Source: Haliotis rufescens (Eukaryota). From it: DNA of 64,000 nt. How positions within the stretch are numbered: position 1 is the stretch's first letter; the number at the start of each line of letters is the position of its first letter. The stretch is from assembly GCF_023055435.1 (NCBI RefSeq), contig NW_025964372.1, forward strand, positions 43,710,001-43,774,000. The letters are read 5' to 3'. Made by a program: the position numbers. Shown here in pieces: positions 27,501 to 30,500 of the stretch.

Positions 27501-30500
27501 GTGTCCTCATGACAATTGCAGGGCAGTATTGGCCCCAGTACCCCATACGTGTGTCCTCATGACTATTCCAGGGCAGTATTGGCCCCAGTACCCCATACGT
27601 GTGTCCTCATGACTATTCCAGGGCAGTATTGGCCCCAGTACCCCATACTTGTCTCAAGACTATTCCAGGTCTGGTTACTGTTCAATGGCTTGGCAGGCCC
27701 TGACTCAGGGATTTACAGGCCTCTAGGATATAGCTGCCTGCAGTGAAGAAAACCAAACAATAACTCACTGAGGTTTCAGTCTGAATTGAAATTTGACAAA
27801 CAGTTAATTTACTATAGCCAAAAGAAGGAATGACCAAACTGATGAAAATAATAATTTTGCTTTACTTTTCAGGGGCCAATTGGACCTGCAGGCCCTAAGG
27901 GAAACAGAGGCGTAAAGGGAGTGAAGGTACTGTCAACATGACACTTTTTACAGCTGATGATTCTGTATGTTAACTGGGTCGGCATGACCTAACAGATCCA
28001 GAGGAATATAGGGTTGTGTATGTTTACTGGGTCGCCATGACCTCACAGATCCAGAGGAATATAAGGTTGTGTATGTTTACTGGGTTGCCATGACCTCACA
28101 GATCAAGAGGAATATAGGGTTGTATATGTTTACTGGGTCGCCATGACCTCACAGATCCAGAGGAATATAGGGTTGTGTATGTAAACTGGGTCGCTATGAC
28201 CTCACAGATCCAGAGGAATATAGGGTTGTGTATGTTAACTGGGTCGCCATGACCTCACAGATCCAGAGGAATATAGGGTTGTGTATGTTAACTGGGTTGC
28301 CATGACCTCACAGATCACGAGGAATATAGGGTTGTGTATGTTAACTGGGTCAACATGACCTCACAGATCAAGAGGAATATAGGGTTGTGTATGTTGACTG
28401 GGTCAACATGACCTCACAGAACAAGTATTAGGTTGTATATGTTAACAGTTGCAATGACCTCACAGGTCAAGGGGGATATGGAGTTGTGTATACTGACAGG
28501 GTCGCTGTGACCTCACAGGTCAAGAAGGATATAGAGTTGTGTATATTAACAGGGTCGCTGTGACCTCACAAGTCAAGAGGAATATTGTGTTGTGTATATT
28601 GACAGGGTCACTGTGACCTCACAAGTCAAGGGGAATATAGAGTCGTGTATGTTATCAGGGTCGCCATGACCTCACAAGTCAAGGGGAATATAGGGTTGTG
28701 TATGTTATCAGGGTCGCCGTGACCTCACAAGTCAAGGGGAATATAGGGTTTTGTATGTTATTAGGGTCGCCTTGACCTCACAAGTCAAGGGGAGTATAGG
28801 GTTGTGTATGTTATCAGGGTCGCTGTGACCTCACAAGTCAAGGGGAATATAGGGTTGTGTATATTATCAGGGTCACCATGACCTCACAGGTCAAGAGGAA
28901 TATTGAGTTGTGTATAGTGACAGGGTCGCTGTGACCTCACAGGCCAAGAGGAATAATGAATTGTGTATATTGACAGGGTCGCATTGACCTCACAAGTCAA
29001 GGGGAATAATATAGAGTTGTGTATGTTATCAGGGTCGCCGTGACCTCACATGTCAAGGGAACGTAGTGCAGTGTATGTTTTCTGCGTACTTGTGATTTTA
29101 TGATTGTGTACAGACCCACTATGACTACATGATTGTGTGATAACAGGGTCACTGTAAAATACAGAAATTGTCAGTAAATCTCTCAGTTGTGAGACATGAT
29201 GTCACCATGGTCACCATGGCCCAAGAAATCAAGGGGGATATATGACTGTGTGTGTTAACAGGGTACCTTGAGTACAATATTGTGTGTTAACAGGGTCACC
29301 GTGGTCACCATGGCCCTACAAATCAAGGGGGATATATCATTGTGTGTGTTAACAGGGTACCTTGAGTACAATATTGTGTGTTAACAGGGTCACCGTGGTC
29401 ACCATGGCCCTACAAATCAAGGGGGATATATCATTGTGTGTGTTAACAGGGTACCTTGAGTACAATATTGTGTGTTAACAGGGTCACCGTGGTCACCATG
29501 GCCCTACAAATCAAGGGGGATATATCATTGTGTGTGTTAACAGGGTACCTTGAGTACAATATTGTGTGTTAACAGGGTCACCGTGGTCACCATGGCCCTA
29601 CAAATCAAGTGGGATATAGGACTGTGTGTGTGTTAACAGGGTACCTTGAGTACAATATTGTGTGTTAACAGGGTCACCGTGGTCACCATGGCCCTACAAA
29701 TCAAGGGGGATATATCATTGTGTGTGTTAACAGGGTACCTTGAGTACAATATTGTGTGTTAACAGGGTCACCGTGGTCACCATGGCCCTACAAATCAAGG
29801 GGGATATATCATTGTGTGTGTTAACAGGGTACCTTGAGTACAATATTGTGTGTTAACAGGGTCACCGTGGTCACCATGGCCCTACAAATCAAGTGGGATA
29901 TAGGACTGTGTGTGTTAACAGGGTACCTTGAGTACAATATTGTGTGTTAACAGGGTCACCGTGGTCACCATGGCCCTACAAATCAAGGGGGATATAGGAC
30001 TGTGTGTGTTAACAGGGTACCTTGAGTACAATATTGTGTGTTAACAGGGTCACCGTGGTCCAATGGGACTGATGGGAATGGATGGAGAGCCTGGCCCCAA
30101 GGGAGAGCCTGGCCCACGTGGAGTTGAGGGTACCAAGGGAGAGAAGGGCGACACGGTAGGTTTAGCATGCAAAAAAAGAGACATAGTTAAACACCTGCTT
30201 TGGCAGACAGTATAATCATATTGTTGATGTGAACAATAACATTTAGATAAATCAAACTTTTTTTAAGTGAGTTTAAGTCTTCAGTTGGGTCCAGTGTACT
30301 GGGTGAAAGGGATCTGCCATTGTTAGCAGTGCTGGTGTCAGTTATTGATGGTGAGTGAGTGAGTGAGTTGGGTTTAACGCCTTTAACAGTATTCCAGTTA
30401 TATCACGGCGTGTCAGCTTAATGTGGGAGGAAAGCCCAAAGTGATGCAGGTCTCAGATGTTTACCACTTTGGTGAAACCCACGAGCATGGGTATGGTGCT

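What the first reader, a model, noticed from the sequence alone, without database searches (positions are those of the whole stretch)
27962..30060. A 2.1-kb intron built almost entirely from copies of its own 3' splice site, in three strata
Seen: intron c31-c32 has about 9 distal 53-bp units in which the acceptor reads actg|ggtc (AG lost). About 11 units follow with cag|ggtcgc, then about 9 proximal 94-bp units each carrying two ttaacag|ggt. Eight of these sites match the real site plus 13 exon nt. The spliceosome must therefore bypass roughly 28 AG-intact acceptor copies. Established: this junction forms KGHR, the helical cross-linking motif of fibrillar collagens. The decoys read GHR-GHH-GPT before losing register.
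Basis: partly seen in the sequence, partly recalled or inferred. Interest (0 to 1): 0.7.

Follow-up and report, generated by a model that had tools for sequence, protein, structure and literature searches.

The report
Splice-site copies fill a collagen intron
A 2.1-kb intron of a non-human fibrillar collagen gene is about 93% tandem repeats that each copy the intron's own acceptor splice site, probably a by-product of rampant local duplication, and it offers a natural test of how a cell picks the right splice site.

Summary
Intron 27927-30047 lies between a 54-nt exon ending ..GVK and a 108-nt exon starting GHRG... 1963 of its 2121 nt are two related tandem arrays, 53 bp x21 and 94 bp x9.

- The unit counts are 9 AG-less, 11 AG-intact and 9 double-site units.
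- Eight decoys equal the real acceptor from at least -47 to +13.
- 28 decoys score about as well as or better than the real site, which ranks 30 of 33 in this gene.

The array is not unique to this intron. The same gene has at least three more arrays that span splice junctions, and 31% of its intron sequence is tandem repeat.

My reading is that this is a junction-spanning minisatellite made by repeated local duplication. Such arrays are known on the donor side in human F7, CBS and ABCA7. Here one sits on the acceptor side, at larger scale.

Because the copies are identical to +13, correct choice must depend on the exon body and its strong donor. Nonsense-mediated decay probably removes most errors. 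This part is inferred, since no RNA data exist.

Recursive splicing is excluded: 0 of 28 decoys has GT after the AG. The KGHR position looks incidental.

The parts
27873..27926 (+). Exon 31 of the window's collagen gene. It is 54 nt and encodes GPIGPAGPKGNRGVKGVK. Its last codon is the K of KGHR. Its donor AAG|gtactg is the weakest of the 33 scored.
   Evidence: GXY exon flanked by cag and gt. (donor PWM -0.2 bits; gene mean 7.8, sd 2.8).
27927..30047 (+). Intron 31, 2121 nt, GT..AG. 1963 nt (92.6%) is tandem array.
27964..28446 (+). Distal block: 9 units of 53 bp (the ninth is 46 bp) whose junction copy reads ctg|GGT. The AG was lost by one shared A>T change.
   Evidence: Within-block identity is 0.93 for units 1-8. 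The block forms one group in the tree, 87/82.
28447..29085 (+). Middle block: 12 units of 53-56 bp. Eleven carry AG|GGTC decoy acceptors (junctions 28499 to 29032). Two interleaved sub-types end in TGACAG and TATCAG.
   Evidence: Identity 0.83-0.86. PWM scores 6.1-11.6 bits.
29086..29200 (+). 115-nt spacer that is not periodic. It holds one degenerate junction copy (aacag|GGTCACT at 29146).
29201..30060 (+). Proximal block: 9.1 units of 94 bp. Each unit is 9 nt identical to exon positions +1 to +9, then a 53-nt homologue of the older unit, then a 32-nt sub-repeat. Every unit therefore carries two ttaacag|GGT sites. The array ends 13 nt inside exon 32.
   Evidence: Identity 0.97.
30028..30050 (+). 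The authentic acceptor (positions -20 to +3). It scores 6.3 bits, rank 30 of 33 acceptors in the gene.
   Evidence: leave-one-out PWM; gene mean 12.3, sd 3.9.
30048..30155 (+). Exon 32, 108 nt, encoding GHRGPMGLMG... It is purine-rich beyond +13 and has a strong donor, ACG|gtaggt.
   Evidence: Pfam Collagen E 9.9e-07. Donor 10.7 bits. Purine fraction 0.68 against 0.54-0.55 downstream of the decoys.
29954..30001 (+). Example of the 8 latent 48-nt pseudo-exons. Each has a decoy acceptor identical to the real one and a GTGTGT donor-like site, is in frame and has no stop (GHRGHHGPTNQGGYRT).
   Evidence: 16 of 93 acceptor/donor pairs are frame-preserving and stop-free.
25226..25551 (+). Sister array: 74 bp x4.4 spanning the acceptor of exon 25537. 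It has 4 AG-intact decoys, each identical to the real site over exon positions +1 to +15.
16970..17463 (+). Sister array: 88 bp x5.6 spanning the donor of exon 16901-17008 and including 39 exon nt. Three decoy donors read ATG|gtaagt and two read ataagt.
8935..8997 (+). Sister duplication: 32 bp x2 spanning the donor of exon 8860-8949.
13598..15385 (+). 21 bp x85 array whose last unit, in register, is the acceptor of exon 15386. It contains only one AG in 1788 nt, against 39.5 expected.

Best explanation
The feature is a compound intronic minisatellite. It was made by repeated local tandem duplication of a segment that spans the boundary between intron 31 and exon 32 of a fibrillar collagen gene.

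Proposed history:
- An older 53-bp array carries diverged copies of the last 40 intron nt plus about 13 exon nt.
- One of its units lost the AG and was amplified into the distal block.
- Later, a 94-bp segment running to exon position +13 was duplicated about nine times. That segment comprised an old unit, a 32-nt partial copy and a fresh copy of the exon start.

A junction-spanning tandem duplication leaves the exon contiguous only with the last copy, so the gene stays intact. I read the array as a by-product of a very high rate of minisatellite formation in this gene, not as a device.

How the right site is chosen (inferred). Eight decoys are identical to the real site from at least -47 to +13. 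The information that identifies the real acceptor must therefore lie further downstream, or be positional. The candidates are the purine-rich body of the 108-nt exon and its strong donor, that is exon definition and exonic enhancers. If a decoy acceptor is used and the transcript reads through to the real exon, an in-frame stop follows within 41 codons. Such errors would probably be removed by nonsense-mediated decay.

Shown: the anatomy, the homology, the site scores and the reading-frame consequences. Inferred: the order of events, neutrality, the selection mechanism and the decay.
For: Origin by local duplication across the junction:
- The 53-bp and 94-bp units are homologous: 42 of 53 identical without gaps, and 0 of 2000 shuffles reach the score.
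- The array ends exactly at exon +13. Beyond that point the exon and the repeat are unrelated (578 of 2000 shuffles reach the observed score).
- 20 of 21 starts of the 53-bp units match exon +1 to +13 at 8-10 of 13 positions. Only 0.1% of window 13-mers reach 9 matches and 0.47% reach 8.
- No unit has a copy elsewhere in the 64-kb window.
- The exon start encodes the conserved GHR of KGHR, so the exon is the source and the repeats are the copies.

General process rather than a special device:
- 9591 of 31013 intron nt (31%) in this gene are tandem arrays, 22 arrays in all.
- Four arrays span junctions. Two are donor-side (8935, 16970) and two are acceptor-side (25226, 29201).
- A 21-bp x85 array ends in register on a fifth junction.

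Site selection:
- 8 decoys are exact copies from at least -47 to +13.
- The real site scores 6.3 bits. Of the 28 decoys, 19 score higher, 8 score the same and 1 scores lower.
- Exon 32 beyond +13 is 68% purine with 10 purine-rich pentamers. The sequence after the 8 decoys is 54-55% purine with 0-1 pentamers.
- The donor of exon 32 scores 10.7 bits.
- All 28 read-through products meet a stop at codon index 10-40.

Precedent. Donor-side minisatellites in human F7, the 6-16 gene, CBS, LMNB2 and PDGF reiterate the splice site. For F7, LMNB2 and PDGF the paper says only the authentic donor is used. For 6-16 and CBS two pseudo-sites are also used (PMC1557585: abstract, passages and Discussion).
Against: - No transcript evidence of any kind was available.
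- Exon definition does not clearly exclude the nearest decoys. Sites at 30015, 29953 and 29921 would give exons of 140, 202 and 234 nt ending on the same strong donor.
- Each 94-bp unit also holds a 48-nt, in-frame, stop-free pseudo-exon. Its acceptor equals the real one, and its GTGTGT donor-like site scores 6.6-7.5 bits. One real donor in this gene is gtgtgt. There are 8 such pseudo-exons, plus 7 of 114 nt and 1 of 84 nt. Decay would not remove these products.
- The intron's own donor is the weakest in the gene (-0.2 bits). Decoys are therefore not outcompeted by site strength.
- First-come-first-served co-transcriptional splicing would favour the upstream decoys (recalled principle).
- The Discussion of PMC1557585 reports that early experiments with duplicated splice sites gave conflicting results.
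- Junction-associated arrays are, if anything, over-represented: 4 to 6 observed against 1.36 expected of 18, P 0.05 to 0.003, post hoc. Pure neutrality does not predict this.
Confidence: 0.6

Rival explanations
1. The decoys are used on purpose. The array would tune collagen output through unproductive splicing. Alternatively it would supply optional 48-nt cassette exons that add 16-residue GHRGHHGPTNQGGY.. modules right after the cross-linking lysine. KGHR would be regenerated whichever copy is used.
For: - 8 pseudo-exons of 48 nt are in frame and stop-free. Their acceptors are identical to the real one and their donor-like sites score 6.6-7.5 bits.
- The real acceptor and the intron's donor are both weak.
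- Measured leakage exists for human junction arrays. Two pseudo-sites are used in the 6-16 gene and in CBS (PMC1557585 passages). About 2% of ABCA7 transcripts retain one unit (PMC5954066 passages).
Against: - The 16-residue module breaks the Gly-X-Y register after three triplets. It would interrupt the triple helix at a conserved site.
- Units in the middle and distal blocks show ordinary decay, including loss of the AG, with no sign of coding constraint.
- Sister arrays at unrelated junctions of the same gene argue for a general mutational process.
- The sequence after the decoys is poor in purine-rich motifs.
Confidence: 0.12
2. The long intron is removed stepwise. This could happen by recursive splicing at the decoy acceptors. 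It could also happen by nested splicing between donor-like and acceptor-like sites inside the array.
For: The intron contains 28 acceptor-like and 21 donor-like sites above the 95th percentile of background. Internal splicing that only shortens the array would do no harm.
Against: - Zero-length recursive splicing needs AG|GT. All 28 decoys have GG at +1 and +2, so a 5' splice site cannot be rebuilt at the junction. Using the GT one base further on would leave an extra G and shift the frame.
- A 2.1-kb intron is not long enough to need recursion (recalled: known recursive sites lie in very long introns).
Confidence: 0.05
3. Reverse polarity. A pre-existing intronic satellite supplied the acceptor and the first 13 nt of exon 32 by exonisation. 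On this view the exon did not seed the repeats.
For: The real acceptor is an ordinary array unit, identical to its neighbours over 59 nt. It is weak and atypical for the gene, with aacag instead of a T-rich tract.
Against: - The 13 nt encode the GHR(G) of a motif conserved at helical cross-link sites across metazoa (PMC5120351 passages).
- The exon has the canonical 108-nt length and starts on an intact Gly codon, like all 34 exons found. This is the rule described in PMC2852846 (passages).
- The other junction arrays copy 15 and 39 nt of plainly coding Gly-X-Y sequence.
Confidence: 0.04
4. Assembly artefact. The near-identical 94-bp units are over-collapsed or over-expanded, so the number of decoys is wrong, or the array is misplaced.
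For: Units are 97-100% identical. The window contains a 187-N run at 19718-19904, so the assembly is not gap-free.
Against: - The array has internal structure: three unit variants in the order a a a b a a b c, a 2-nt indel and a 378-bp higher-order period.
- It is flanked by diverged older units and runs seamlessly into an intact exon.
- Copy number may be off, but the existence of the array would not change.
Confidence: 0.07
5. The array helps splicing. Many copies of the branch-point, pyrimidine-tract and AG modules would recruit U2AF and U2 locally and so rescue an intron whose own sites are weak.
For: - Both sites of this intron are weak.
- The TTAAC inside each ttaacag matches the YTRAY branch motif. 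It lies 36 nt upstream of the next acceptor, including the real one.
Against: - The YTRAY motif is not consistently present in the gene's other introns: 17 of 33 introns have none in their last 60 nt.
- In the one measured human case that I read, a longer array increased skipping of the downstream exon (PMC5954066 passages).
- This idea cannot be tested here.
Confidence: 0.06

Closest known systems
Human F7 intron 7 minisatellite (37-bp VNTR). PMC1557585 groups it with arrays in the interferon-induced 6-16 gene, CBS, LMNB2 and PDGF.
   Same: It is a tandem array whose terminal unit spans an exon-intron boundary, so the authentic splice site is followed by identical pseudo-sites. The exon-proximal copy is the authentic one. 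The pseudo-sites were shown to be functional but normally silent (abstract, passages and Discussion). The 88-bp array at 16970-17463 in this window is a direct counterpart.
   Different: - All of those arrays are on the donor side. There the authentic site is the first to be transcribed, and a 5'-to-3' scan explains the choice.
- The array studied here is on the acceptor side, so the authentic site is the last of about 29.
- F7 has only 4-8 pseudo-sites. Here there are 28 AG-intact decoys, arranged in two nested repeat generations.
- The usage and copy-number polymorphism of the present array are unknown.
Human ABCA7 intron 18 VNTR (25-bp unit)
   Same: Each unit of this intronic array begins with a splice-donor dinucleotide. 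Retention of one unit gives a frameshifted transcript with a premature stop, at about 2% of transcripts (PMC5954066 passages).
   Different: It is donor-side. Its reported main effect is length-dependent skipping of the downstream exon. No comparable data exist here.
[quoted passage not shown]
   Same: Identical acceptor copies compete in cis.
   Different: These were artificial constructs with two copies, and the outcome was disputed between laboratories according to that Discussion. I did not read the original papers.
Dual-specific AGGT splice sites in tandem-repeat genes such as UBC (PMC10809524; abstract only)
   Same: Splice-site motifs are reiterated by a tandem repeat, and repeat units are included stochastically.
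   Different: Those sites are AG|GT and can act as either a 5' or a 3' site, and the repeats are coding. Here the motif is AG|GGT, which is not dual-specific, and the repeats are intronic.
Growth of fibrillar collagen genes by duplication and unequal crossing-over of 54-bp exon units (Yamada model, as described in PMC2852846; passages)
   Same: The gene family, the 54/108-nt exon architecture and the kind of mutational process (local tandem duplication) are the same.
   Different: That model duplicates whole exon-plus-intron units and lengthens the protein. The arrays here duplicate only a junction fragment and leave the protein unchanged.

Membership tests
Junction-spanning intronic minisatellite (F7 IVS7 type) | Head-to-tail tandem array with a unit of about 10-100 bp inside an intron | tested here: met
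   Period 53 x21.2 and period 94 x9.1.
Junction-spanning intronic minisatellite (F7 IVS7 type) | The terminal unit spans the exon-intron boundary, so the authentic splice site is reiterated exactly | tested here: met
   The array ends at exon +13. Eight copies are identical from at least -47 to +13.
Junction-spanning intronic minisatellite (F7 IVS7 type) | The array sits on the donor side, with the authentic site as the most upstream copy. This holds for all six published examples I saw. | tested here: not met
   This array is on the acceptor side and the authentic site is the most downstream copy. The sister array at 16970-17463 does meet this feature.
Junction-spanning intronic minisatellite (F7 IVS7 type) | Pseudo-sites are silent or nearly silent in normal transcripts | not testable with these tools
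   No transcript or read data were available.
Junction-spanning intronic minisatellite (F7 IVS7 type) | Copy number is polymorphic between alleles (VNTR) | not testable with these tools
   Only one haplotype is given.
Fibrillar collagen gene | The triple-helix exons are 54, 108, 45 or 99 nt, starting on a Gly codon and ending on a complete codon | tested here: met
   34 Gly-X-Y exons on the + strand, of which 21 are 54 nt and 6 are 108 nt. Two further exons of 36 nt were found. The rule is as described in PMC2852846.
Fibrillar collagen gene | A C-terminal COLFI propeptide domain | tested here: met
   Pfam PF01410 on three separate exon-like reading frames, with E 2.2e-08, 3.9e-13 and 4.7e-20, all above the curated cut-off. 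The nearest solved structure is the human collagen III C-propeptide, E 1.1e-14.
Fibrillar collagen gene | A helical cross-linking motif K-G-H-R near the C-terminal end of the helix | tested here: met
   ..GVK|GHRG.. lies across the exon 31/32 junction. By the exons found, 93 helix residues follow the K. Cross-linking chemistry itself cannot be tested here.
Recursive splice site | AG immediately followed by GT, so that a 5' splice site is regenerated after the first step | tested here: not met
   0 of 28 decoys qualify. All read AG|GG.
NAGNAG tandem acceptors | Two acceptor AGs 3 nt apart that give in-frame alternatives | tested here: not met
   Spacings are 32, 62 and 53 nt. All read-through products meet a stop.
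Dispersed satellite or array carried by a mobile element | Copies of the unit at other loci | tested here: inconclusive
   No copy lies outside its own array within the 64-kb window. The rest of the genome could not be searched.

The most novel reading that the evidence does not exclude
The 94-bp array is a battery of live splice modules. Each unit offers an acceptor indistinguishable from the real one over at least 60 nt. Each also offers a 48-nt, in-frame, stop-free mini-exon that begins GHR, so KGHR is rebuilt whichever copy is joined to exon 31.

Two outcomes are possible. The cell may ignore all of them, which would show in nature that acceptor choice can rest entirely on information 14 nt or more inside the exon, against about 28 equal or better competitors transcribed earlier. 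Or the cell may use some of them. In that case the output or the helix structure of a cross-link-bearing collagen chain would vary with repeat copy number.

Together with the mild excess of junction-associated arrays in this gene, this would make such arrays a heritable, fast-mutating control on splicing.
Probability: 0.1. Interest if true: 0.75.

Novelty: new variant of a known kind. Interest (0 to 1): 0.45.

Why it matters
Minisatellites that reiterate a donor site are classic natural models for 5' splice-site choice. In six literature searches I found no natural acceptor-side counterpart. The library holds open-access papers only, so this is not proof that none is published.

The acceptor side is the harder case. 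The authentic site is transcribed last, so a simple 5'-to-3' scan or a first-come rule predicts failure. Here one gene offers several natural constructs:
- two acceptor-side arrays, with 28 and 4 intact decoys;
- two donor-side arrays;
- an 85-unit array with no AG.

The nearest decoys are exact copies out to +13. If transcripts show clean use of the real site, this is a ready-made system for asking how much of acceptor choice lies in the exon body.

If the site leaks, repeat copy number becomes a genetic variable for collagen output. The matter is ordinary in one respect: the arrays themselves look like neutral products of a repeat-prone genome.

Tried and rejected
- RNA structure. Local unpaired probabilities (window 150, span 100) over -20 to +3 are 0.468 for the real site. 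They are 0.415-0.457 for the 8 identical decoys and 0.34-0.57 for the middle decoys. This gives no useful separation.
- Branch-point motif. YTRAY is absent from the last 60 nt of 17 of 33 introns. The TTAAC at -36 of the real site is therefore only a weak lead.
- Similarity between exon and repeat beyond +13: none (578 of 2000 shuffles reach the score).
- Copies of any of six units or spacers elsewhere in the window: only chance-level hits of 12-40 nt with E of at least 0.014.
- Rfam at gathering threshold: nothing in the intron, and three weak tRNA-like hits elsewhere.
- Directional growth. The unit tree is unrooted and built on 53 columns. Only 1 of 22 inner branches is well supported, so no order of events can be read from it beyond the three blocks.
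- Literature. One search failed on term syntax. One search found nothing, probably because phrases with 3' cannot be matched.
- Not tried. The genome-contig collection holds only bacteria and archaea, and the phage, plasmid and E. coli collections are not relevant to an animal gene. Structure prediction, complex prediction and the protein atlas would add nothing about an intronic repeat.
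Full report
**Setting**

The window's + strand carries most of a fibrillar collagen gene.
- A six-frame scan found 34 uninterrupted Gly-X-Y exons between 185 and 33519 and none on the - strand. Each is preceded by cag or tag, and all but the last are followed by gt. 21 are 54 nt and 6 are 108 nt.
- A relaxed scan added two 36-nt exons at 31499-31534 and 32375-32410.
- Downstream, three exon-like reading frames match the Pfam COLFI domain, with E 2.2e-08, 3.9e-13 and 4.7e-20.
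- One of these frames matches the solved human collagen III C-propeptide at E 1.1e-14, with a clearly diverged alignment.

I therefore do not take this contig for human. It looks like a distant, invertebrate-type relative. The organism could not be determined, because no collection of eukaryotic genomes was available.

I did not build or search a joined, spliced protein. The 187-N run at 19718-19904 was left as it is.

**The observation**

Intron 31 (27927-30047, 2121 nt) lies between exon 27873-27926 (..GVK) and exon 30048-30155 (GHRGPMGLMG..).
- Tandem Repeats Finder reports 53 bp x21.2 at 27964-29079 (86% matches). It also reports 94 bp x9.1 at 29201-30060 (97% matches, with a 378-bp higher-order period).
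- Together these cover 1963 of the 2121 nt.
- Scanning for the junction-centred 20-mer gave 39 sites:
  - 9 distal sites read ctg|GGT;
  - 11 middle sites read AG|GGTC;
  - one degenerate site lies at 29146;
  - 9 sites read cag|GGTACC;
  - 9 sites read cag|GGTCACC, the last being the real acceptor.
- The 8 GGTCACC decoys equal the real site over 47-59 nt upstream and exactly 13 nt downstream.
- A decoy translates GHR-GHH-GPT and then loses the Gly register, stopping at codon 24.

**Homology and anatomy of the units**

A verbatim 53-bp unit aligns without gaps to positions 10-62 of a 94-bp unit, with 42 of 53 identical. Its score is 51 against 12.4 +/- 2.3 for shuffles, and 0 of 2000 shuffles reach it. 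A distal unit does likewise.

The 94-bp unit has three parts:
- 9 nt identical to exon positions +1 to +9;
- a homologue of the 53-bp unit;
- a 32-nt piece that repeats the last 13 nt of the acceptor region (0 of 2000 shuffles reach the score).

Beyond +13 the exon and the repeat are unrelated (578 of 2000 shuffles reach the score), so +13 is a true duplication boundary.

The starts of the older 53-bp units still match exon +1 to +13 at 8-10 of 13 positions in 20 of 21 units. Only 0.1% of window 13-mers reach 9 matches and 0.47% reach 8. The junction was therefore copied at least twice, once for each repeat generation.

**Strata**

A maximum-likelihood tree of the 30 unit cores puts each physical block on one side of a branch. 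Support is 87/82 for the distal block, 88/80 for the middle block and 100/99 for the proximal block. Only 1 of 22 inner branches is strongly supported, and the tree is unrooted.

Within-block identity is 0.93 (distal units 1-8), 0.83-0.86 (middle) and 0.97 (proximal).

The distal block is thus younger or more homogenised than the middle one, and it groups with the proximal block (88/80). The three strata are real as block amplifications, but they are not an age gradient. The loss of AG in the distal block is one shared A>T change that was later amplified.

**How good the decoys are**

I built position weight matrices from this gene's own 33 acceptors and donors, leaving out the site under test. 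They rest on few sites and ignore dependencies between positions.
- The real acceptor scores 6.3 bits. The gene mean is 12.3 with sd 3.9, and the real site ranks 30 of 33.
- Of the 136 AG dinucleotides in the intron, 29 exceed the 95th percentile of background AGs (4.1 bits). These are the real site and 28 decoys.
- Among the 28 decoys, 19 score above 6.3, 8 equal it and one scores 6.1.
- The intron's donor, AAG|gtactg, scores -0.2 and is the lowest in the gene.

**Consequences of mis-splicing**

If a decoy is used and the transcript reads through to the exon 32 donor, an in-frame stop is met at codon index 10-40. This holds for all 28 decoys.

There is a second route. The intron also has 21 donor-like GTs above the 95th percentile of background (5.7 bits).
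- Of 93 acceptor/donor pairs lying 25-300 nt apart, 16 delimit frame-preserving, stop-free pseudo-exons.
- These are eight of 48 nt (GHRGHHGPTNQ.GY..), seven of 114 nt and one of 84 nt.
- Their donor type, gtgtgt, is used by one real exon of the gene (2286-2339).

Nonsense-mediated decay would not police these products.

**Not a one-off**

The same gene carries 22 tandem arrays, covering 9591 of 31013 intron nt. Several touch splice junctions.
- **25226-25551, acceptor side.** 74 bp x4.4. Four decoys are identical to the real site over exon +1 to +15 and score 15.1-18.1 bits against 15.4 for the real site. All lead to a premature stop.
- **16970-17463, donor side.** 88 bp x5.6, including 39 exon nt. 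Three decoys read ATG|gtaagt and score 10.9 bits, like the real donor. Two decoys have GT changed to AT. A stop lies three codons past the real donor.
- **8935-8997, donor side.** 32 bp x2.
- **13598-15385.** The 21 bp x85 array ends in register on the acceptor of exon 15386. It contains one AG in 1788 nt, where composition predicts 39.5.

No unit has a copy outside its own array in the window.

Placing each array's founder unit uniformly predicts 1.36 junction-spanning arrays out of 18. Adding the two 36-nt exons would raise this slightly. The observed number is 4, 5 or 6, depending on how the 53-bp and 21-bp arrays are counted. The corresponding P values are 0.05, 0.013 and 0.003, and the test is post hoc. 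So there is no avoidance of junctions and perhaps an excess, which I cannot explain.

**What it most likely is**

It is a junction-spanning minisatellite produced by repeated local tandem duplication.

The polarity, exon to repeat, follows from three points:
- the copied 13 nt encode the GHR(G) of the KGHR motif;
- the exon has the canonical length and Gly start;
- the sister arrays copy plainly coding Gly-X-Y sequence.

KGHR is the conserved motif of the two helical cross-linking sites of fibrillar collagens (PMC4825002 passages). A K-G-H-R pattern is described as conserved at both sites across metazoan chains (PMC5120351 passages). By the exons I found, 93 helix residues follow the K. This is near the roughly 84 that I recall for vertebrate alpha1(I), a figure that comes from no call. 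Since other junctions of the gene carry similar arrays, the position at KGHR looks incidental.

**How the right site may be chosen (inference)**

In every junction array the authentic site is the exon-proximal copy. That is a geometric necessity of tandem duplication, not evidence for any mechanism.

The informative fact is that eight decoys are identical to the real site from at least -47 to +13. Whatever marks the real site must therefore lie deeper in the exon or be positional.
- Exon 32 beyond +13 is 68% purine with 10 purine-rich pentamers. The sequence after the decoys is 54-55% purine with 0-1 pentamers.
- Exon 32 ends on a 10.7-bit donor.

This fits exon definition with exonic enhancers (principles recalled, not tested here), with decay removing read-through errors.

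Several points count against this reading:
- The nearest decoys would still give exons of only 140-234 nt.
- The 48-nt pseudo-exons are themselves exon-definition candidates.
- The upstream decoys are transcribed first.
- Predicted local RNA accessibility does not separate the real site from the decoys.

**Recursive removal**

This is excluded at these sites, because AG is followed by GG in 28 of 28 decoys. Nested splicing inside the array remains possible but is unsupported.

**Comparison with what is known**

PMC1557585 (abstract, passages and the whole Discussion read) describes the human F7 intron 7 VNTR of 37 bp. Its first unit spans the exon 7 donor.
- The 4-8 identical pseudo-sites are functional yet silent.
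- The most upstream site always wins.
- The paper lists further donor-side cases in the 6-16 gene (25 pseudo-sites, two of them used), CBS, LMNB2 and PDGF.

PMC5954066 (passages) adds ABCA7.
- About 2% of transcripts retain one unit.
- Skipping of the downstream exon rises with array length.

All of these cases are donor-side. Six searches turned up no natural acceptor-side array. The supplements are the ABCA7 tables S2 and S3 and the F7 supporting information. They might refine the leak figures, but they do not bear on the anatomy reported here.

A preprint on CAG repeats acting as acceptors (10.1101/2023.10.16.562581) was seen only in the search listing. Dual-specific AGGT arrays in UBC (PMC10809524, abstract only) differ because the motif here is AG|GGT.

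**What stayed unchecked**

The following could not be checked:
- any transcript evidence;
- the rest of this genome, and so whether the units are dispersed;
- orthologous introns;
- copy-number polymorphism;
- the organism.

The remaining collections hold no animal genomes.

**Verdict**

The feature is a real and unusually large acceptor-side version of a known kind of junction-spanning minisatellite, in a gene riddled with such arrays. It is most likely neutral in origin. Its interest is as a natural experiment on acceptor choice, and that depends on RNA data which do not exist here.

Noticed in passing
window 16970-17463: An 88-bp x5.6 array copies the last 39 nt of exon 16901-17008 plus its donor. 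Three downstream copies keep ATG|gtaagt and score the same as the real donor. The last two read ataagt.
   Followed up: yes
window 25226-25551: A 74-bp x4.4 array copies the acceptor of exon 25537 plus 15 exon nt. Its four AG-intact decoys score 15.1-18.1 bits against 15.4 for the real site.
   Followed up: yes
window 13598-15385: A 21-bp x85 pyrimidine-rich array ends in register on the acceptor of exon 15386. It has one AG in 1788 nt, where composition predicts 39.5. This makes a 1.8-kb stretch with no AG upstream of a splice site.
   Followed up: partly
window 8935-8997: A 32-bp duplication spans the donor of exon 8860-8949 and gives a second copy reading CTGCT|gtgagtatatacactg.
   Followed up: partly
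window 185-33474 (all introns): 31% of the intron sequence (9591 of 31013 nt) is tandem array, in 22 arrays. Junction-associated arrays number 4-6 against 1.36 expected under uniform placement. This excess is unexplained.
   Followed up: partly
window 29294-30001 (each 94-bp unit): There are eight 48-nt in-frame, stop-free pseudo-exons. Each is bounded by a decoy acceptor and a gtgtgt donor-like site. There are also seven of 114 nt and one of 84 nt.
   Followed up: partly
window 31499-31534 and 32375-32410: Two 36-nt Gly-X-Y exons (ag|[12 protein letters not shown]|gt and ag|GMTGPKGDIGGL|gt) were missed by the first scan. Tandem arrays start 42 nt and 19 nt downstream of them.
   Followed up: partly
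window 33553-33594: In the exon that ends the triple helix, the reading frame has K followed by 11 consecutive Arg (..SSKRRRRRRRRRRRSVDD..), just before the C-propeptide. This could be a proprotein-convertase-type cleavage site or a coding microsatellite.
   Followed up: no
window 19718-19904: A run of 187 N sits in the intron between exons 19135-19242 and 19977-20084.
   Followed up: no
window 12161-12231 (+), 56781-56852 (-), 62865-62923 (-): Three tRNA-like Rfam hits lie just above the gathering score (29.2-32.5 bits). They may be tRNA-derived repeats rather than genes.
   Followed up: no
window 29201-30060: By eye, the 94-bp unit is dense in short palindromes: GTTAAC twice, GGTACC, AATATT, CCATGG, GGTCACC twice and GATATATC. 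I did not test this against chance.
   Followed up: no
window 33670-35034, 45754-46384, 46712-47206, 49546-51326: More large tandem arrays lie downstream of and beyond the collagen gene: 28 bp x50, 24 bp x28, 19 bp x26 and 36 bp x49. High minisatellite density therefore seems to be a property of the region, not only of this gene.
   Followed up: no
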